NCBI GenBank assembly: GCA_050575255.1
Contig: JBNZDD010013627.1
Location: 2,690,607-2,754,606 of the forward strand
Direction: 5' to 3'
Length of the DNA: 64,000 nucleotides
From: Harriotta raleighana
Lineage: Eukaryota
In this document: in pieces, positions 9,548 through 63,806 of the stretch
Numbering within the stretch: position 1 is the stretch's first letter
Layout of the letters: the number at the start of each line of letters is the position of its first letter
The notes under the pieces: generated by a model
What the model was told of the DNA's origin: nothing
What the model saw: the letters and a program-made list of their open reading frames with translations, nothing else
The model's database searches: none
Made by a program: the position numbers and the translations under genes

Positions 9548-10184
9548 CCTTATCATCACATCCATCACATTCATCACATCCAGGTTCAACTATGGGAACT
9601 CTCTCCTTGTCGGCCTTCCCAGCTCCTCCCTTCACAAGCTGTAGATTATTCAGAACTCTGCAGCTCGTGTACTCTCCCGCACTGGGCTCCGCGACCACAT
9701 TACTCCCAGCCTCACCCATCTCCATTGGCTCCCCATCCCCCAGAGAATCGAATTCAAGATCCTCGTCCTCATCTTCAAGACCATTCACGGCCTTGCTCCC
9801 GCCTATCTCTCCGAGCTGCTGTCTCCCTATCAGCCTGCCTGTCCCCTCCGTTCAGTGGGCTCCGGCTTGCTCCATGTCCCCCGCCCGAACTGCACTAACA
9901 TTGGCGGATGGGCTTTCAGCCTTTCTGCCCTCACACTCTGGAACTCCATCCCGCAATCCTTTTGCCTCGCTGCTCCCTTTCCTCCTTAAGGACAGTCTCA
10001 AGACCTTCCTCTTCAACCATGCCTTCTGCTGCTCTCCTAACTCTCCCCCCTTTCCTACTCTCATTCCTCCTTCCCCTACCCTGACCTTTCCCCCACTGCT
10101 CGGGTCCCGACCTAACTGTTCAGTGCCTTGGGACATCCTCCCGAAGTGAAAGGCGCTCTATAAATGTAATTTTGTTATTGTTTT
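9548..10184 (+). mobile_element. L2 LINE 3' fragment (ORF2 C-terminus plus tail)
   Basis: Translates ITSRFNYGNSLLVGLP...LHWLP...FKILVL motifs. Tail GGGACATCCTCCCGAAGTGAAAGGCGCT...(TTG)n. Confidence 0.85.
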
Positions 10185-11460
10185 ATCACATCACACGACC
10201 CCTCAAAGCCTTTTGCATGATATACTGTAAAGTGGTGTGTATGTAATTTTATGAACAATCATAATGTCTGTCCCCTTTTTATAGGCTCACTAACTGGTGG
10301 AAACAGATTATATTCACCTTATCAATCCCTNATTGTTTTATCACATCACACGACCCCTCAAAGCCTTTTGCATGATATACTGTAAAGTGGTGTGTATGTA
10401 ATTTTATGAACAATCATAGGCTCACTAACTGGTGGAAACAGATTATATTCACCTTATCAATCCCTTATCAATATTCTAAAGATCTCTTATCAGATCACTT
10501 CTCAAATACCTCATCTACAGAGAGAAAAAGTCAAAAGCTGCCCAATCTTTCCTGACAATTGTATCTTCTCATTACAGATAGCATCCAGGTAAATCTACGC
10601 TGCACTCTCTCCCTTGCTACAATATCCTTTCTTGTGTCGTGGTCAGAACTGTATAGTAATCCAAATGTAGACTAACCAAGGTTTATAACAAATTAACCTC
10701 AGTACAATTTCATATAAAATTAGCAGTTTCACCCATAAAATATAGTCAATTCACTTTACATTATATTCTGTGAAGTGCTTTGAGAATTCTTGAAGACAGG
10801 ATAGATGCTATAGCAAATGTAAGGATTATTATTATTAACAGCCTATGCAACCCTCAGGCAAACTAAAACTTGGATTTATTTCTTCTACACACAAACTAGA
10901 CAATACAATACAAAATAATATTAGTACAAAGCCTTTCACGTCGGGANATTTCTTTCTTCTACACACAAACTAGACAATACAATACAAAATAATATTAGTA
11001 CAAAGCCTTTCACGTCGGGAAGGCCCTGGAGGAGATTTATATGATGTACTTCTGCTTGTGAGGTACCAAGCCATATTTAACAAAATGTGTGTTGGCGGAG
11101 TGTTCCACAAATGACACCAAGTCAATATTTTTAAAGTAAACATTACAAGGATTTGTTTCACCCACAAATATACAGTCAATTTTTTCCTACTTTCCTTCCC
11201 CTTCCCCGCTCTGATCCCTACTTGACTGTACAGCGCTTTGGGACGTCCTCCCNAGACAAATATACAGTCAATTTTTTCCTACTTTCCTTCCCCTTCCCCC
11301 TCCCCGCTCTGATCCCTACTTGACTGTACAGCGCTTTGGGACGTCCTCCCAACGTGAAAGATGCTATAGAAAGGTAATTTTGATGGAATGATTGATTGAA
11401 GAACATTAGCAGCCTGTTCAGCAAAACTCACTGATGAAAGGCAATGGAAACTCACTGAAC

Positions 11461-23570: not shown

Positions 23571-23753
23571 CTATATCTTCAGTCTGTTCCTCTTGTCTTT
23601 TACTTTTGTCTTCTCTTGATGTCCAGGGGGGTGTTTGGGGGTGATCTGGTTCTGAGTAAATCTAGCCACAGTGGATACACCATCCACAAACTTAGTTTTG
23701 AACAGGACGTTCGCATTGTTGAACATTCCATCCTTCAATGACACCACGATGAA
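23571..23753 (-). CDS. SMC2: SMC2 exon 25 (last coding exon)
   Basis: [60 protein letters not shown]. Confidence 0.95.
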
Positions 23754-24327
23754 CTGCGAGTGATTGAAAAAAACAAGTTATCAAAACAAAATGAGGTTGT
23801 CTTTCCTAAAATCATTGTATTTCCATTTAACTTCTTTTCCTTCGACAACAACTTACTTAGCCCCTTTCAAGTAAGGAAAAGGTCGTGAAACGTTTACAGG
23901 GATAAGGTAGAGTGGGTAGTGAGCATGCACACATAGTGTGCAGAAGGAATGGAGTCCATACGCTATTTGCACGAAACAAAACCAATAATAAGGCATGTTA
24001 TAACATGATTCCACTCTATACAGCAAAAGAAAAGAAAAAATACAATGATGCATTATTTAATAACCAATCTTCAATTTCATTACAGATTTAAAATGCAAAA
24101 TGACAATTGTAATCACTGTGTGTGATTTGATATTCAACACCTCACCAAGCAAACAGTCACTGGAGGCAGGAATCATCCCACTCCTCTCCTTTCACCTTGC
24201 AAGCCAAAGCTCTGACTGGTAGGGTGGTCCTAGCTGGACAAACAGTGAGATCAATGGCAAGCCCCCAAAACCTCTCACCATTTCCTTCCCCTCCCAAATT
24301 ACACGCATCTAAAGAAAAGCAACAAAC

Positions 24328-24475
24328 CTGGGAGTGTCTGAAATGTGTGCGAAGCATCTGTCCAATGTTTTGGGTATGAGATAGGTCCAGGGCTGCATCA
24401 ACCTCATCCAGGATATAAATTGGAGCAGGTTTGAAGAGCAGCATGGCCAGGATCAGAGACAGAGCCACCAATGAC
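24328..24475 (-). CDS. SMC2: SMC2 exon 24 (Walker B / D-loop)
   Basis: [49 protein letters not shown], 148 nt, AG/GT. Confidence 0.96.
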
Positions 24476-24702
24476 CTGAAGAAAACACATCTCAAAGCTT
24501 AGTTACTTAACGGAACATAACCCTGAACTAAAATAATCATTTATATAACTGATCCACCCAGAATAAATGTAAATCAGTTATATAAGTGAGCATTTTGTCG
24601 CCACTCACAAGCAGTATATATGAGTGAATCTTCAAACATATTCTTAAATGCAGCCAAAATTGAGCAAAGTGACTCTTCTTGCCTGTATATGTCCCTTTAG
24701 AG

Positions 24703-24904
24703 TAGTGGTTTGCAAACTGTGGGGTTCGCCTCCCTTGGGGGTGCGTTGGCTGGGGGGAGGGGGGGAAGCTTTAGAATCTCGAGCCCTCGAGTGCATGTGG
24801 AGCCGAGTGCATAAAGAGCCAAGTGTGAAGGAGAGGGGGGCGCAACAAAACTTTGCTGAGTTAGTAGGGTGGGGGGGCCTCTATTTGAAGTTTGGAAGCC
24901 ACTG
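24703..24904. mobile_element. hAT/Charlie-like MITE
   Basis: Imperfect TIRs TAGTGGTTTGCAAACT / AGTTTGGAAGCCACTG. Left flank CTTTAGAG is Charlie-like, but the right TSD is not preserved. Confidence 0.55.
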
Positions 24905-25108
24905 GTGCACTGGAGCCGGGAGCTTAGACCCTGGTCAAGCAAATTTACAATTTGTTTTGTTGTCATTTCTATTCGCAAATATCAAATTGGAAGATTCATA
25001 AAAATAGTGGATCCAAAACTGACAAAATTGAATAAAAACGCAACAAAAACTTCACATCAAGCAGATATTTACTCCAAAGACTTGTTAAAATAAAAGAAAA
25101 AGACGCAC

Positions 25109-25269
25109 CTTTGACCTCCGCTGAGTTCAGTGAGGTTCTCCTTCCAATCAATGCCAAGGGCCACTTTGAACTCAAGTCCATCCAGGATAGTCTTGCCTTC
25201 CGGAGGTGCCAACATGGCATTCGCTCCAGGAAGCAATGTGCAAAAAATTGAGCCAAAATCTTTGTTCAC
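25109..25269 (-). CDS. SMC2: SMC2 exon 23 (ABC signature LSGGQ)
   Basis: [54 protein letters not shown], 161 nt. Confidence 0.96.
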
Positions 25270-25324
25270 CTGCATGGAGGAGGATTACGATGTGTTCAGT
25301 TCAAAATGATTACGAATTTCATGG

Positions 25325-25905
25325 GAAATTGGCAAAAGAACCAGAGGGTTGATGAGGAGACTTTTTTTTTTAAAAAGCTACAAGTTGAAATGCACTGCCT
25401 GTAAGTTCTGTCTCACTGCCTGCTCTGTCTCTGATCCTGGCCATGCTACTTTTCAAACCTGCTCCAATTTATATCCTGGATGAGGTTGATGCAGCCCTGG
25501 ACCTATCTCATACCCAAAACATTGGACAGATGCTTCGCACACATTTCAGACACTCCCAGGTTTGTTGCTTTTCTTTAGATGCGTGTAATTTGGGAGGGGA
25601 AGGAAATGGTGAGATGTTTTGGGGGCTTGCCATTGATCTCACTGTTTGTCCAGCTAGGACCACCCTACCAGTCAGAGCTTTGGCTTGCAAGGTGAAAGGA
25701 GAGGAGTGGGATGAGGAGTGGTGGAAGCAGATTCAATAACAATTTTCAAAAATAAATTGTAAATTTACTTGGAAAGAAAATAATGACGCGGCTATGGAAA
25801 GCGAGTGGGTGGTGCAACTACTCGGTCAGCACTTTCGAAGAGCCGGTAGTAGCACAATGGGATGAATGGCCTCCCTTTAAGCTGCTGATTCTGTGATTCT
25901 TTGAT
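25325..25905 (+). mobile_element. Old CR1 3' end split by the inverted exon-24 copy
   Basis: GAAATGCACTGCCTG before and GTGGTGGAAGCAGATTCAATA...GAATGGCCTCC...GATTCTGTGATTCT after the insertion are consecutive parts of the CR1 3' region (compare 1-128). Confidence 0.7.
25422..25714 (+). repeat. Inverted duplicate of SMC2 exon 24 (lacking its first 10 nt) plus 155 nt of intron 24
   Basis: Reverse complement of 24173-24465, 290/293 identical by manual alignment. Confidence 0.95.
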
Positions 25906-26142
25906 TCATGAAGCATTCAACATACAATTGGCAGAAAATCTAAACTTCCTTCGCGACAATATTGGTTTCTCATTCTCTCCTTTATCTAGGGTTTTTTTAA
26001 AACTTAAATCTCCATCCACTTTCTAGCTCTATCAGTTTAACGTCTTCCCGGCGTGAAAAGCAGTGTGCAAATGTAATTTAGAACACAATGGTTCTTAAAC
26101 AGCAAAAAAAGGTTGTGGGTTCAAAGTGTTGTCAATGGTCAC

Positions 26143-26516
26143 AACAACAACTTTGACTTATATAGCGCCCTCCACGCCAGACGGCGTCTCAGAGCGCTTC
26201 ACAGTCATGGATCCCGGGACTGAGCCAGGGGCAGGGGCAGAAAGGTGACCAAAATCGCAGTCGAAGAGAAAGATCTTTAGCTGAGACCTGAAACTGGGAA
26301 GAGAGGGGGCGAGGTGGAGGGAGTGAGGAAGGGGGTTCCAGAGCCTCAGGGCATAGTGGTTGAAGGCACAGCCGCCGAGGGTACAGCGGAGGATTCGGGG
26401 GTCATGGAGGAGGCCAGACCCGGTGGAGCGAAGGCAACAGGTGCTGGTTTGAGGAGAGAGATCGGAGAGGTAGGGGTGTGCAGAGGAGTGGAGGGATTTG
26501 AAAACAAGGGTGAGGA
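26143..26516 (-). mobile_element. L2 LINE 3' fragment abutting the SMC2 exon 22 donor
   Basis: LTLVFKSLH...LWNPLP motifs, (TTG)n tail, close relative of 63415-63806. Confidence 0.85.
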
Positions 26517-26522
26517 GGTTAC

Positions 26523-26639
26523 CTGCTTCCATGCAACATTTAAGGCATTGTTCTTCTTTTGATCCAACTCTTCAATAGTTGAGAGAATTTTTGCTTTGTC
26601 AGTTTCAACAATTCTTTTCTTCTTCATCAGATCATTGTA
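26523..26639 (-). CDS. SMC2: SMC2 exon 22
   Basis: [39 protein letters not shown], 117 nt. Confidence 0.95.
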
Positions 26640-27833
26640 CTGTGAAAAAACCCAAAATGGAGCTCACTCAATTTCATGCTTCACACAACGAAGAAATGAC
26701 TCGCTTTCATCAATACAACTGCATTCTCAGCTGTGAATTGCTCTGAGACTCCATGTCATTGCAATTTACAGAGAACAGTCACTATTGCAGTGCAGTTACT
26801 GCTAATGTACACAACCTAGTAATTCTAAGGTGATCAACGAATGTGGTCATCACCTTACAGGAGCTTTGAGGGTGAATTGGACAAATAAGGTACTTGTTAC
26901 AGCTATTGACTTAAAGCACTATAAAACCTGTAATTTGGGTTTGGGTTTAATTATAAGAATAAATTGTGTTCTCAGCGGAGCCAATTAATATACTGGAACA
27001 TCACAGAACAACGGAACTTCACATAGCACAGTGTGGAGTAGAACTGCGTGTGTGTGTCACCTGAGGCAGTGCTCTCCCAGGTGTACTCCACACTGTGGGG
27101 TGTCTAGTCAATGCTCTATCAGGACTTCCTCGTTCCCTACGAGAGCATTACCTTGTAACAAATACTCCCTGGAGATGGGGGTTGGGGACATGCATCAAAC
27201 ACAAAACTGTTGCTAAATATTGTGGAATAAATTTGCTGTTTAGGAATCCCTCAACATCTGCACTCTACTCACTTGGGTAAAGGTGGCTCCTGGGAGAATC
27301 TACAATTGAAGTCTCTAAAGGAAGCAAGCGGTCCAGCTAGATTGACAATAGAAATCTATCTTAACATATCCAGGAAAGTGCCTAGACAACCACTAAACAT
27401 CATCTCAAACCACTGAAGGTGTATTACAAAAGATTGTAATGATAATATTTGATTTTAATCTAGCGCAAAAATATCCCAAAGTCAAATACTGGTTGTCCAA
27501 GCGCAGTGACTATATTGTAGACAAACTCAGCAGCTATTGTGAAATAAACAATTGATTATTATTAGAGGATTGTTGGCCAGGAGTCCAGATAAAGACCCTA
27601 CGTTTTCAAATTGAGTTTTTAAAGTTCATAAGGGAAGGCGGGAGACAAGGTGTTGAGTGGGAGTGGGAGCTGATAGACTGAAAGCCCAACCTCCGACAGT
27701 GGGAAGGGTAGGGTGGGATTGTGGAGAGTGAAGTAAGCCACATGTCACAATTTTCACCCCTATATTGCTGTATATCTGAGAAAGTCAATTCAGTTAATCC
27801 CAAAATGAATTAATGGACAATTTGAGTTAATAC

Positions 27834-36590: not shown

Positions 36591-36803
36591 CCACATGCCT
36601 AATAATAATCCCTCCAAAATAACAATAATAAAATTGGTCATTTCAATCCAGGACTATTTGTGGGATGCTGCTGTGCACAATTGGTGGTGCGTTTCGCCCA
36701 CAAATATACAGTCAATTCACTTTACAGTATATTCTGTGAAGTACTTTGAGATGTCTAGAAGATGTGAAAAAGCACTATATCAAATTCAATGATTATTATT
36801 ATT
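36591..36803 (+). mobile_element. 5'-truncated SINE ~22 nt from the exon 15 acceptor
   Basis: Body and tail of the 6490 family. Confidence 0.85.
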
Positions 36804-36991
36804 TATGATATGAAATACAGTTACAAAATCATATTTACTTTACATACAATAAAATCACTGAAATTGTTTGAAGTCCTATGGCTGATAGAAGTCAAACTAA
36901 AGCACTTGGATTTGTAAAACTGGACTGGGGACACAGCACACCTTCAATCCGGAGTAATGATTCAATTCCCTTGTAGCTCTGCAGCTCTTAC

Positions 36992-37111
36992 CAAATGTTT
37001 GGCAGCTTTCACTGTTTGATCATTGATGCACCTCCCAGAAATTTTGTTGAGCGGTATGATGGTGTATCTCCGTTTGAGGTCTCCTTTCTCTAGGAGCTTC
37101 TTGCCGGTTAC
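36992..37111 (-). CDS. SMC2: SMC2 exon 14 (hinge)
   Basis: [40 protein letters not shown], 120 nt. Confidence 0.96.
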
Positions 37112-37214
37112 CTAAACAAGAGGGAAAAATATTGAGCAAAGTCCTCATTCTCCTAAGTTTTGGGGGAAAACAATTTTGTACCTTCAATTCAAAACTTCAG
37201 TCACAAGATCTGCA

Positions 37215-37672
37215 CAATAACAACAAAATTACGCTTGTATAGCCTTTTCACTTTAGGAGGACGTCCCAAGGTGCTGGCCAGTCACTGTTTCAGACCCAAG
37301 CTGAGGACCGGGGGAGGGAAGGGGTGTATTAGGAGTTGCCAATGGGTCCATCAAAGAGGAGTCTTGAGGTGAGACTTGAAGGAGGCCGGGGAGGGGGCGA
37401 GGCAGATGGACTGTGGGACAGAGTTCCAGAAGTTGGGGGCAGAGTGGCTGAAAGCTCACCCACCAATGGTGGGACGGTTTGGTCAGGGGGACATGGGGTA
37501 GGCCAGAGCCTGCTGAGCAGAGTGGATGGGTAGATTGAAAAGGGGATAGGAGGTCACGGATGTAGGGTGGGGCGAGGTTGTGGGGGAATTTGATATAGCG
37601 CTTTTTCTTTAAATGTGAGGACCAGTATCTTGAATTGGATCCTTTGGATGATGGAGAGCCAATGGAATTGCA
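37215..37672 (-). mobile_element. L2 LINE 3' fragment
   Basis: Similar to the 3' part of 33953-35300. Confidence 0.8.
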
Positions 37673-37807
37673 ACACAATTTAAGAGATATGTGTCTCGAC
37701 TTAAATAAACTCCAGAAACGATATGCACACAGCATTACGTACAATATATTTTTTCGGTGTGTTTGGCTACTAAAGATGTACTAAAGATGTTATGCACTGT
37801 CACCTAC

Positions 37808-37946
37808 CTCTGTGTCCACCACCACGTTATATAGACGGCCTCCAGCAACCACTTCCAGGGCTGTTGCTGCCGAGATTTCTTTCACAGAGATAAGTGAGGC
37901 AACAAGACCTTTGACTCTATCTGAGTTCCAGTTCTTTTCAGGATCC
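37808..37946 (-). CDS. SMC2: SMC2 exon 13 (hinge)
   Basis: [46 protein letters not shown], 139 nt. Confidence 0.96.
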
Positions 37947-38363
37947 CTAAAAAACAAACACGGGTTCGAAAAAGCTGCTGTTTAATTTATTTCACTGAAA
38001 TTAAAACACTATTCGCCACAGTGAAGATACAAAACATTTCTCAAGTCCATAAAAGAGCAATAATTCACAGTATGATAAAAAGGCTTGCATAGAGGTCATT
38101 ACCCAATGCTGTACAGAAATTCTCCCAATGTGCTGGTTTTCTTTTTCAATTGTATTCTTTTCAAAGCATACTCCCACCCACCAGACACAATGATAGTTCA
38201 TTCAACAATTTATCTTTAACATGGAGTGCACAGGGTAAGTCCCTGCTACCTGTATAAGTTACTAAAACGTCAAATCAGCCAAATGTCAGAACACTTTGTG
38301 GCAATGCACGCATCTATTTGCTTTGTAATTTGCCAAAATATTTAAGTACCTATTATAGAATGC

Positions 38364-38673
38364 AATAATAATAATCCTCGCATTTGATATAGCACTTTTC
38401 ACGTCTGACATCTCAAAGCACTTCACAGAATATACTGTAAAGTGAATTGACTGTATGTTTGTGGGCGAAACACGGCAGCCAATTACATACAGCAGTGTCC
38501 CACAGAGTTGTTGATTGAAATGACCAATTTTATTATTGTTTATTTTGGAGGTATTATTATTAGGCATGTGGAGTAAGGAAGCTTGCCTAAAGTTTCAACC
38601 TGACCTGACTGGATTCAAACACAGATCTCACGCTTGGAAGGTGAGTGCTCTAACCACTGAGCTACAGGACTCC
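38364..38673 (-). mobile_element. tRNA-derived SINE (full length)
   Basis: 6490 family. Confidence 0.88.
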
Positions 38674-38740
38674 ACATTAAGACTCTAAATTTTAACTGCG
38701 TGCTTATGCAATATCAAGGCTAGAGAATAGTAATTCTTAC

Positions 38741-38858
38741 TTGTAATCAAATCTTAAATTGGGGAATTTTCCCACCAAGGTTTCATAGGATTCTCTGAGC
38801 TTATTTACAGCTCGCGACAGGTCTCGGCGCTGGTCTAAAAGCTTCTCTTCTTTCCCAT
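38741..38858 (-). CDS. SMC2: SMC2 exon 12
   Basis: DGKEEKLLDQRRDLSRAVNKLRESYETLVGKFPNLRFDY, 118 nt. Confidence 0.94.
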
Positions 38859-39404
38859 CTTAAAAAAGAAGAAAATGTGTGAGAGAATACAATTACAGTA
38901 CAAAATAATAGTAATAGTCCAATTCTTTGGCTTTGAACTTTTACAACAATACAATGAAAGCCCAAATTGCAAATGCTGGAAATTTGCAGCAATTTGATCA
39001 GCACCCGAAAGAGAAAGGCGAGTTAATCTTATCTGCATGACCTAGTTAAAAAGCTGTCAGCCTAGACAATATGGGAGCTACAATCTACAATTTTCTCTTT
39101 CGGATGCAAACGTGGTACCAACTGAGCCAATAGATGCATAACCTTTCTGAGCTTGTAATATTGATAATAATAATAATAATCCTTGCATTTGATATAGCGC
39201 TTTTCACATTTTATCGACGTCTCAAAGCGCTTCACAGAATATACTGTAAAGTGAATTGACTCTATATTTGTGGGTGAAACGCAGCAGCCAATTGCGCACA
39301 GCAGTGTCCCACAAACAGTCATGGATTGAAATGATTTTGAGATGTTAGTTAGTTTATAATCACAGTAGAATTTGCACAGCCCACAATGCAGAAACTCGTC
39401 AAAC

Positions 39405-39564: not shown

Positions 39565-41666
39565 CTAAAGAACGATAGTGATCCAGTTTAGAATTTAGAA
39601 AGGAATTTTAGTATTTGAATATTTACGCCTTCGCAGTAAAACAACAACTAGCATTTATATGAATGCATTACTGCATATTGTACACTATATACACTCACAC
39701 AGATACAATCAAATCCTAATAAATAGTTACAGAGGGAAAAGAGCTGCCTGGGAATTGATGCATAGATTCTCCCCGATCACTAAGGAGCATTGCAGTAGGC
39801 AGGACCTACACTAACACACACTGCACCAGGCAAGGTAAGCAACTGTCAGTGTGACAAAATGACCCCCTCCCTGTGACTGACAGTTTATTTGTTAAATCTC
39901 ATTTAAGTTATGTTTAGGTATAGGCACAAAATGCACTTATTTATATTAGTATCTATCACTTAATTCTGTAACCACATTGGAAATTGTGCACTTTTCGGGA
40001 GTTGTACGGTAGTGTATTAGTGTATTAAACTGTACTTCCAGGTACTGTAGTATTATATGTAAAAACTAAACATCTCTTTGTGGGAAACAATTTGCAGACA
40101 ACAAAATGCATATAACTGTCTTCTTGATCATTTTCAAAATGATAAAATATGGCACAGTCGAATATCACTCATCTGTCGTATCAATGTACTTACCTTTTCC
40201 AAGGTACTCTATTTCACGTAAGAGGATGGGTTCACTGGGTGAGTTTGACCATCTTCCCACAGTACAGGGCCCTCATCAGAAGCGTTTACTTTGGGTGCTG
40301 GCCAGCCAGGCGGCTTGCTGACATGTTCTGATAGTACAGGCAAGTTCACTCCAGGTCACTTTAATTTATCCAATCTAGTTTAATTATGGGGGTTTCTAGA
40401 ATGCAACTGCTTATGTTTTAAGTGGAATGATGAATAAATTGGAGCCCCCTTTTCACATTTTGCATGGGAAGTGGCTGGGATATTGACAGGAAGGTGACTT
40501 AAGCCATGTGGCTATTTAAGCCAGTGTCTTATTATCAGGAGTTTATGGTTTACAAATGTATATGTATACATATTCTGNGGAATGATGTGGAATGATGAAT
40601 AAATTGGAGCCCCCTTTTCACATTTTGCATGGGAAGTGGCTGGGATATTGACAGGAAGGTGACTTAAGCCATGTGGCTATTTAAGCCAGTGTCTTATTAT
40701 CAGGAGTTTATGGTTTACAAATGTATATGTATACATATTCTGCTCTTTATACATGATAGCATCTTGAGGGCTTCACAATGGTGGGGTTGAATGCCGAGCG
40801 AGGGAGAAGGGGGAGGTGATAACAGGCACAGTCAAAGAGTCAATTCTCAATATAGGATTTAGAAATAAACCTGGGGCAAGATACAGGGATTTCCAGGTTA
40901 GGGTCAAAGACAATGATCCCATATAGAAAATGTGCATAAAAGACACTAGGATCACATTGAAAATATATATTTTTAACAATTTTAGGCACAAGCTCAAGAC
41001 TTAGGGACACACTGGAATGGGCATTATTAGATTAATAGTCTGTACTTCAGCACTTTCCGCAGTGAACAAGATTAGTTTGACAAGCTAGTATGCTAGACTT
41101 GTGACATCCTCTCGATGTGTAATGCGCTATATAAATGTAATATTGTATTGTCTTTGCCGGATCTTAACACAGCTTTCCGGTTTCAGAGTCTGATTCAATC
41201 AAGATGTTGCTTCAACATAAAATATACTTTTTTTTAATAAAAAAACAACTGTCTTCAACCAGTCTTCAAACCATCTCTATGTCCCTAATCCTTCTTTAAA
41301 ATTCACATTATTTATTGATCTAAATACACATTTAGGTTTCATATTCACTTCAAATGTAGCCATACTTTTGTTACTGTGGCTCCATTATCCTATTCATAAT
41401 GGTCAGAGACCCATGGAATCAGCTCTGAATTGACTGAAACCAAAAAGCTTTCAGAAGTTTTTAAAAAGTCAAATACTAACTTCATATTGCAGTTTGTCCC
41501 AATTATATTATCAACATATTCAAGTCACTCTAGAGTGCAAATTACAGGGTGCTAAAGTGTATACGACGTAATATTGCACAATGTAGAATCCGTTACCAAC
41601 AACAGAAGCCTGGAGTTTCAGGAGTGTCTTAGCTGCAGATAAAAATCACATTATGGCACAGTTTAC

Positions 41667-56672: not shown

Positions 56673-57279
56673 CTTATAACAGAATATTTCAATGAAATTC
56701 AGGTAGAACCACACGGGTTTTTTTTTTTAAAAAAAACTTAATTCTTCAAGGTAATTTTTCTTTCTCTGTCCGGCTTTTNAACAGAATATTTCAATGAAAT
56801 TCAGGTAGAACCACACGGGTTTTTAAAAAAAAAAAAACTTAATTCTTCAAGGTAATTTTTCTTTCTCTGTCCGGCTTTTAACCAGCGGGAGTTTAAAGAG
56901 GGCATGAAAAAAAAATGGTGTAGGAAATTAGATAGTAAGAAAATAATGCTACTCTGTACTATATAAACGCAGGTAAAGTTAAACAGGTAGGCTTCTAGGC
57001 TGACAGTTTCTAGTGGAGTGGGGAAGTGCTGCATTGCTGGATGCTGCAAGTGCTGTATGTCAGATGAGACAGTAAACTGAGGTTCTGTCTGCCTGTTTAG
57101 GTGGACATTAAAGAACCCATAACACTATTGGAAAAGAGAGGTAATGTTTCCTGCTGACCTGGCAAATTGGTCTGTTAAATTGGTTATTCACCTTCAGATT
57201 GTACCGTATATAAACGTTTTTTTTAAAATTGGGCCACAGGGATTCAGCATCAAGAATGCATTACTGTACTAACTAAACG

Positions 57280-63414: not shown

Positions 63415-63806
63415 TGGTGAAAATCCTCACCCTTGTTTTCAAATCTCTCCACTCCTATGCACCCCCTACCTCTCTGACCTCCTCTCTCCTCAAAACTGCA
63501 CCTGTTGCCTTCGCTCCACTGGTTCTGGCCTTCTCCGTGTCTCCCGAATCCTCCGCTCCACCATTGGCAGCCATGCCTTCAGCCACTATGCCCCAAAGCT
63601 CTGGAACGCCCTTCCTCACTCCCTTCGCCTCGCCTCCTCTCTTCCCAGTTTCAGGTCCCAGCTAAAGATCTTTCTCTTCGACCGCGCCTTTGGTCACCTT
63701 TCTACCACTGCGCCTGGCTCGGTCCCGGGATCCATTTTTATGAAGCGCTCTGAGACGCTGGCTGGGATGGAGGTCGCTATATAAATCAAAGTTGTTGTTG
63801 TTGTTG
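63415..63806 (+). mobile_element. L2 LINE 3' fragment
   Basis: [11 protein letters not shown]...KLWNALP, (TTG)n tail. Confidence 0.88.

What the first reader, a model, noticed from the sequence alone, without database searches (positions are those of the whole stretch)
24173..25714. Antisense copy of SMC2 exon 24 in intron 22 builds a 293-bp hairpin into the pre-mRNA
Seen: 25422-25714 is the reverse complement of 24173-24465 (290/293 identical). It covers 138 of the 148 nt of exon 24 (Walker B ILDEVD, D-loop), its 5' splice site and 155 nt of intron 24. In transcript order the antisense arm comes first, then exon 23, then exon 24. The nascent RNA could therefore fold into a near-perfect 293-bp duplex with a 956-nt loop containing exon 23 and the exon 24 acceptor. 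Known: long intramolecular dsRNA is an ADAR substrate (editing-complementary sequence), can occlude splice sites, can promote back-splicing and can feed Dicer. Inference: this may be a built-in cis-antisense regulator of an essential condensin ATPase exon (recoding, exon masking, circRNA of exon 23 or endo-siRNA). Its effect would depend on whether intron 22 is spliced out before exon 24 is transcribed.
Basis: partly seen in the sequence, partly recalled or inferred. Interest (0 to 1): 0.85.

Follow-up and report, generated by a model that had tools for sequence, protein, structure and literature searches.

The report
Backwards exon copy in SMC2 intron
In this assembly of a cartilaginous fish, the chromosome-condensation gene SMC2 carries a 293-base backwards copy of one of its essential exons in a nearby intron; it is most likely a scar of DNA-break repair of a known kind, predicted to fold onto that exon in the unspliced RNA, with no effect on the gene shown.

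Summary
In detail: 25422-25714 is the reverse complement of 24173-24465 (290/293). It covers 138 of 148 nt of the Walker B exon, its donor site and 155 nt of intron.

The copy splits an old interspersed repeat almost without loss (27 of 29 family copies run through the site). One junction has a 16-nt filler pieced from donor and flank; the other has a 6-nt microhomology with a slip. This meets the tested criteria of a repair-mediated duplication (PMC2671141).

The duplex is predicted to be very stable. A human allele of similar build goes with exon skipping and disease (CHM, PMC8756506). Here skipping would truncate an apparently single-copy essential gene, so a passenger or mildly harmful allele is likelier than a regulator.

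No read or RNA evidence was obtained, so zygosity, fixation and effect are open. The assembly is gappy; artefact about 8%. The scan has noted this kind before in other genomes. Interest 0.3.

The parts
24173..24465 (-). Donor arm: nt 11-148 of SMC2 exon 24, its 5' splice site and 155 nt of intron 24
24328..24475 (-). SMC2 exon 24 (coding exon 23; 148 nt; Walker B and D-loop region, human residues about 1091-1139)
24173..24250 (.). Fragment of an interspersed repeat in intron 24 in which the copied tract ends
   Evidence: 38 partial hits within query 1-90 at 81-96% identity
24466..25421 (-). 956-nt loop: end of intron 22, exon 23, intron 23, exon 24 acceptor and first 10 nt; single copy, no N
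25109..25269 (-). SMC2 exon 23 (161 nt, ABC signature motif), inside the loop
25325..25405 (+). Left part of the interrupted old repeat (3' fragment of a LINE; the CR1-like label is recalled, not from a call; left edge approximate)
25406..25421 (+). 16-nt junction filler: one extra base, 8 nt matching the start of the donor, then a re-copy of the left flank
   Evidence: 15 of 16 bases tiled by local templates; P about 0.001 against 197,137 random 16-mers
25422..25714 (+). Inserted copy (acceptor); antisense to exon 24 in the SMC2 transcript; ends 152 nt before the intron 22 acceptor
25713..25721 (+). Right junction: 9-nt block mirroring donor 24178-24186, read as a 6-nt microhomology with the flank plus a 3-nt extension and slip
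   Evidence: sequence; order of events inferred
25716..25910 (+). Right part of the interrupted repeat with its short-repeat 3' tail; 70-89% identical to family copies
26523..26640 (-). SMC2 exon 22 (118 nt), upstream boundary of the host intron (1253 nt)
23574..23753 (-). SMC2 exon 25, last coding exon (coding part)

Best explanation
The 293-nt backwards copy splits an old repeat in intron 22 and is most likely a repair-mediated duplication: a germline break was likely patched by copying DNA from about 1 kb away in the same gene, and the RNA hairpin it is predicted to form would be a side effect that the gene tolerates or suffers from, not an evolved switch. Inferred origin: one broken end primed on the opposite strand of intron 24 through a 6-nt microhomology, slipped after 3 nt, and copied 293 nt into exon 24. 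It then switched twice over 8-nt patches between the other broken end and the donor, and rejoined the repeat with at most about one base lost or shared. Inferred RNA behaviour: in transcripts that still hold intron 22 when exon 24 emerges (805 nt after the intron 22 acceptor), the duplex would zip from exon nt 11 across the 5' splice site. The likely results are some exon 24 skipping or intron 24 retention, A-to-I editing, and perhaps an exon 23 circle. Exon 24 skipping shifts the frame, replaces the last 110 residues with 6, and leaves the stop in the last exon, so it would probably escape nonsense-mediated decay. Transcripts that excise intron 22 first would splice normally. The allele persists either because that early route or duplex unwinding is enough, or because it is heterozygous or rare.
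For: Shown: the host repeat is continuous across the site in 27 of 29 family copies (20 of the 27 with the same one-base offset; control 11%). The filler is tiled by local templates (15 of 16 nt, P about 0.001). There is a microhomology block at the other junction, no poly(A) tail and no target-site duplication of 4 nt or more. One donor only among the scored hits. Size 293 nt and distance 956 nt fall inside the published class (50-619 nt, <5 kb, peak near 1,200 nt; PMC2671141). Four other gap-free, low-copy local copies of 53-118 nt occur in 1.064 Mb, so local copies are not rare here (their junctions were not verified). The ends bear no relation to functional boundaries. Harmful outcomes of skipping and editing were computed. 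One copy of SMC2 exon 23 in G000. Precedents: ACSBG2 inverted exon copy without coding constraint; CHM; multi-switch templated insertions as human germline variants (PMC8421209).
Against: No reads were laid, so the copy is not confirmed outside the assembly, and this assembly makes false duplicates at gaps. The filler test used templates chosen after seeing the junction. Three differences in 293 nt exceed a crude 0.18% heterozygosity proxy (P 0.017, or 0.10 if the two adjacent changes are one event). In a slow lineage this could mean millions of years of persistence, which a strongly harmful allele would not reach. Both exonic differences are synonymous (chance about 0.06-0.14 from the fractions), weakly hinting at alleles of the real exon. 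SDSA, MMBIR and polymerase-theta joining cannot be told apart from sequence.
Confidence: 0.78

Rival explanations
1. Assembly artefact: a second-haplotype or chimeric piece of the exon 24 region was placed backwards nearby by a short-read assembler or gap filler.
For: The assembly has 144 gaps in 1.064 Mb and many direct duplicates across gaps, including at N positions in this window. Both exonic differences are synonymous, as allelic variants would be. No read confirmation.
Against: No N lies within 12 kb of the arms. The gap-spanning duplicates seen are nearly all direct (7 of 8 low-copy pairs with N). The insert leaves and re-enters the host repeat at adjacent bases, with 8-nt templated patches that are too short for graph joins (inference). 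The differences lie 99 and 26 nt from the ends and 164 nt apart, unlike one heterozygous bubble (inference). The assembler may still have mis-assigned variant letters between real arms.
Confidence: 0.08
2. Co-opted cis-antisense regulator: the copy arose by repair, became fixed, and now tunes SMC2 output through editing, exon masking or back-splicing, depending on splicing speed.
For: The duplex is very stable and covers the donor site. The geometry allows kinetic control: 644 nt from the exon 23 donor to the first pairing base, with both immediate and delayed splicing reported in mammals (abstracts of 10.1101/611020 and PMC8122139). The 1% arm divergence is compatible with a long stay.
Against: No conservation, compensatory change or RNA evidence. 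Every computed alternative product loses or damages the C-terminal ATPase half. The ends are arbitrary. The class is common enough that some copies must hit exons by chance (8 of 824 human cases touch coding exons or splice sites in Table 2 of PMC2671141).
Confidence: 0.07
3. RNA-templated patch: the break was filled with reverse-transcribed SMC2 pre-mRNA (class 2 templated sequence insertion) rather than by copying nearby DNA; the RNA consequences are the same.
For: The copy runs across an exon-intron boundary of a transcribed gene. Templated insertions of 73-414 bp at breaks are described (PMC5110952, where a section title states an RNA origin; that section was not read).
Against: The donor is only 956 nt away, whereas those insertions come from distant regions. 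The switches between the break's own flank and the donor point to a DNA template at the break (inference). No poly(A).
Confidence: 0.05

Closest known systems
Repair-mediated duplications (RDs), Pace et al. [quoted passage not shown]
   Same: Insertion of 50 nt or more that interrupts a transposable element; single donor within 5 kb; microhomology and filler; no poly(A); exon copied backwards into its own gene.
   Different: Cartilaginous fishes were not among the species surveyed. The copy here is a partial exon plus donor site at 99% identity in an essential gene, upstream of the donor. The filler is fully resolved into templated patches. No empty site in a relative was seen.
CHM exon 12 intragenic inverted duplication in choroideremia (PMC8756506)
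   Same: Inverted copy of an exon within the same gene; microhomology junctions ascribed to FoSTeS/MMBIR; predicted pre-mRNA hairpin over the exon; out-of-frame skipping as the outcome.
   Different: CHM: 1,752 bp, whole exon with both splice sites, copy downstream of the exon, skipping observed in patients (hairpin cause not tested by the authors). Here: 293 bp, acceptor left free, copy upstream so that early removal of intron 22 could avoid the duplex, and no RNA data.
Complex MMBIR-type templated insertions (MMB-TI, PMC8421209)
   Same: Several template switches at short microhomologies with nearby templates in both orientations; found as germline variants.
   Different: Described in human reads; the mechanism here is inferred from one assembled sequence.
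ADAR editing-complementary sequences such as GluA2 Q/R (recalled, not read here)
   Same: Intronic sequence complementary to an exon and its donor site.
   Different: Those are short, imperfect, conserved and site-selective. This is long, near-perfect and of accidental build, which by general knowledge invites non-selective editing.

Membership tests
Repair-mediated duplication (PMC2671141) | Insertion of at least 50 bp interrupting a transposable element whose two parts are collinear within 30 bp | tested here: met
   About 310 nt inserted; 27 of 29 family copies continuous, offsets -9 to +4, mostly -1
Repair-mediated duplication (PMC2671141) | [quoted passage not shown] | tested here: met
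   2 full-length matches among 40 scored of 796 candidates
Repair-mediated duplication (PMC2671141) | Donor more than 50 bp and less than 5 kb from the acceptor; length within 50-619 bp | tested here: met
   956 nt apart, 293 nt long
Repair-mediated duplication (PMC2671141) | Microhomology, filler or small deletion at the junctions; no poly(A/T) tail | tested here: met
   6-nt microhomology, 16-nt filler, no tail
Repair-mediated duplication (PMC2671141) | Empty orthologous site in a relative or on another allele | not tested
   No reads were laid and no relative's genome is held; no second haplotype in G000. The repeat family stands in for the empty site.
Class 1 templated sequence insertion / retroposed copy (PMC5110952) | Target-site duplication, poly(A) tail, distant donor | tested here: not met
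   No tail, at most one shared base, donor 956 nt away
ADAR editing-complementary sequence | Intronic element able to pair with the exon | tested here: met
   Predicted only: duplex -609 kcal/mol, fold
ADAR editing-complementary sequence | A-to-I editing seen in RNA and dependent on the element | not tested
   No RNA holder listed; no evidence either way
ADAR editing-complementary sequence | Conservation or compensatory changes that keep the pairing | tested here: inconclusive
   3 differences, none compensatory (one leaves a G-U pair, two are mismatches); no orthologous DNA seen
Hairpin-driven exon-skipping allele (CHM type) | Skipping of the copied exon in mRNA from the allele | not tested
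   No RNA data; consequence computed only
CR1 LINE (host repeat) | ORF2 C-terminal motif and short-repeat 3' tail of CR1 | tested here: inconclusive
   Label recalled; a family copy gave no Pfam match and only unnamed clusters in the Atlas

The most novel reading that the evidence does not exclude
The copy is fixed and millions of years old in this chimaera lineage, so an essential single-copy condensin ATPase gene lives with a near-perfect 293-bp duplex over its Walker B exon and donor site. Correct SMC2 then depends on intron 22 being excised (or the duplex unwound) within about 0.8 kb of transcription, and the race has been co-opted to throttle SMC2 by skipping or editing: a natural kinetic-coupling switch born from one repair event.
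Probability: 0.07. Interest if true: 0.75.

Novelty: new member of a known kind. Interest (0 to 1): 0.3.

Why it matters
As an ordinary repair-mediated duplication it is a clear example, with fully readable template switches, from a lineage outside the published survey (PMC2671141). It has modest extra value as a natural test. The antisense arm lies upstream of the exon and in a different intron, so the locus would report whether a vertebrate intron is removed before 0.8 kb more RNA is made. Published mammalian estimates differ on this (abstracts). If the copy is fixed and splicing is normal, near-perfect exon-masking duplexes can be tolerated even in an essential gene. If it is rare and causes skipping, it is a CHM-type damaging allele in a wild fish.

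Tried and rejected
Public runs: 14 listed, 11 holding part of the stretch in 5 studies; no RNA holder listed. No reads were laid on the locus, which leaves reality in reads, zygosity, other individuals and related species open.

A second SMC2 copy or alternative haplotig that would relieve essentiality or show an empty site: none found (1 of 1 candidate; 40 of 1097 scored, one full match; 40 of 385 scored, one full match).

Naming the host repeat: no long reading frame among 40 hits, no Pfam match, unnamed Atlas clusters with a low recognition value. The label stays recalled.

A search for ADAR genes in G000 did not complete; their presence rests on general vertebrate knowledge.

Dating: 3-31 Myr for assumed rates of 2e-9 to 2e-10 per year, with intervals from 0.6 to 91 Myr. 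Rejected as a firm age, because allelic differences, synthesis errors, gene conversion or mis-assigned letters can explain three differences.

Retroposition: rejected (intron kept, no tail). Chance or paired transposons: rejected (over 200 nt of the arm are single-copy). Inversion breakpoint: rejected (exon order is collinear).

Papers: (SMC2, inverted duplication, exon skipping, A-to-I editing, chimaera; at least 3 terms) listed 3 reviews, none holding 'SMC2'; one search found none; two searches gave nothing close. This covers only the held library. Supplements were not opened; those of PMC2671141 (list of RDs) could hold further exon cases.

Full report
Verdict. The inverted copy is in the assembly as described. 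It is best read as a repair-mediated duplication, a known class, and its predicted RNA hairpin as a by-product. No read, RNA or cross-species evidence was obtained.

Observation. The arms 24173-24465 and 25422-25714 are reverse complements at 290 of 293 bases, with no gap, and are 956 nt apart. One difference is intronic (24272); two are synonymous third-position transitions in neighbouring Leu codons (24436, 24439). tblastn with Callorhinchus milii SMC2 (P0001, best hit, 94% over exon 23) maps 24 coding exons on the minus strand from 59309 to 23574. The organism is therefore probably a chimaera-like cartilaginous fish (inference). The donor exon is 24328-24475 and matches human SMC2 residues 1091-1139. 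Only two full-length matches appear among 40 scored of 796 candidates in G000. Exon 23 is found once.

What it is. The copy sits inside an old interspersed repeat. The flank to its right matches many family copies at 70-89% (29 of the 39 non-self hits were fetched). In 27 of these 29 the sequence of the left flank comes directly before it, 20 of them with the same one-base offset; the control rate was 11%. So about 310 nt were inserted with almost no loss. The repeat looks like a CR1 LINE 3' end, but that name is recalled; searches did not confirm it.

Junctions. The left junction holds 16 extra bases: one base, 8 matching the start of the donor, then a re-copy of the left flank. Local templates tile 15 of the 16, which 0.12% of 197,137 random window 16-mers reach (templates chosen after inspection). 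At the right junction a 9-nt block mirrors the donor just inside the copy's end, readable as priming on a 6-nt microhomology, 3 nt of synthesis and a slip (order inferred). There is no poly(A) tail and no real target-site duplication.

Known class. Pace et al. (PMC2671141; I read parts 1-3 of 8 and five passages) define repair-mediated duplications as insertions of 50 bp or more that split a transposon, have one donor within 5 kb, and show microhomology, filler or small deletions. They found 824 in human (up to 619 bp, distances peaking near 1,200 bp) and 80 in zebrafish. One, in ACSBG2, is an exon copied backwards into an intron of its own gene. Four of five criteria are met here; the empty orthologous site was not tested. 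Multi-switch templated insertions occur as human germline variants (PMC8421209; abstract and part 1 of 2 of one results section).

Base rate. In 1.064 Mb of G000 (four regions, not random, one holding the window) there were 86 local pairs of 50 nt or more at 88% or more. Of these, 13 were low-copy and 5 of those had no gap: 3 inverted and 2 direct, this one the longest. The other four were not verified as repair duplications. SMC2 itself holds 11 inverted pairs of 60 nt or more within 5 kb; the other 10 are 71-89% identical.

Artefact risk. The assembly is gappy (144 gaps in the sample) and shows many direct duplicates across gaps; several tandem repeats in this window sit on single N. The copy has no N within 12 kb, is inverted, and returns to the next base of the host repeat. 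Against a crude heterozygosity proxy (32 mismatches in 17,461 bases of 18 gap-spanning duplicates, 9 of them identical and 14 mismatches from one), three differences have P 0.017 and two events P 0.10. I put artefact at about 8%. Variant letters could still be mis-assigned between real arms.

How it would act (predicted). The duplex is -609 kcal/mol at 37 C against -80 and -95 for the arms alone; the exon part alone gives -283 (fold of most of the region). Pairing can start at exon nt 11, 805 nt after the intron 22 acceptor and 644 nt after the exon 23 donor, and would reach the donor site as it emerges. If intron 22 is already excised, nothing forms in cis. Abstracts report splicing after several kilobases in human and fly (10.1101/611020) or either immediate or delayed (PMC8122139), so both routes are plausible.

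Computed outcomes. Skipping exon 24 keeps the signature motif, loses Walker B, and replaces 110 residues with 6, with the stop in the last exon. Skipping exon 23 stops 76 nt before the last junction, a likely decay target by the recalled 50-nt rule. Skipping both removes 103 residues in frame. Retaining intron 24 replaces the last exon's 60 residues. Of 32 adenosines in the paired exon part, 24 would change a residue if edited. None of these looks useful.

Functional precedent. In CHM, a 1,752-bp inverted copy of exon 12 with microhomology junctions goes with exon skipping and disease, though the authors could not test the hairpin (PMC8756506; abstract and 12 of 15 passages). That SMC2 is essential is established knowledge, not tested here.

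Age. If all three differences arose after insertion, assumed rates give 3-31 Myr with intervals of 0.6-91 Myr. The shark rate of 7e-10 per generation (PMC10587355, passages) would imply about 9 million generations (my arithmetic). Allelic differences, error-prone synthesis or gene conversion could equally explain them. So the copy may be old and tolerated, or young and rare. This is the main open point and the reason the novel reading keeps 7%.

Limits. No RNA holder was listed and no reads were laid. Literature searches found no report of this locus in the held library; PMC5110952 was read in part 1 of 4, and other listed papers only as listings. Earlier notes of this scan describe the same kind in other genomes, including a backwards exon copy in elephant-shark SLBP. 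They are unchecked leads and were not used as support; no note exists for this genome or for SMC2.

Scores. Best explanation 0.78; artefact 0.08; co-opted regulator 0.07; RNA-templated patch 0.05. Novelty: new member of a known kind. Interest 0.3.

Noticed in passing
window 10181-10486, 10874-11021, 40422-40742, 56673-56882: Near-perfect tandem duplicates each centred on a single N (10331, 10947, 40578, 56779): likely scaffolding artefacts, not real duplications. A fifth N lies at 11253.
   Followed up: partly
L093:4007-4059 (G000 C13726:5124007): 53-nt single-copy inverted duplicate, 100% identical, 586 nt apart, no gap: candidate young repair duplication.
   Followed up: partly
L113:5530 (C13725:4125530), L042:4740 (C13627:2505346), L094:6016 (C13726:5136016): Three more gap-free low-copy local copies: 106 nt direct 96%, 118 nt direct 95%, 62 nt inverted 89%.
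   Followed up: no
window 36591-39334 and other SMC2 introns: Oppositely oriented repeat pairs inside the SMC2 transcript, e.g. 215 nt at 86% across 1.6 kb and 167 nt at 89% across 2.4 kb, flanking coding exons 11-13: ordinary loop-out or back-splice candidates.
   Followed up: no
window 24466-25421: The two arms could recombine and invert the loop, turning exon 23 and the exon 24 acceptor around and killing the allele (inference); an assembler could also flip it, but it lies in the sense orientation here.
   Followed up: no
window 26141-26460 and 63482-63801: 320-nt inverted pair at 87%, 37 kb apart; probably two copies of an interspersed repeat, one in intron 22.
   Followed up: no
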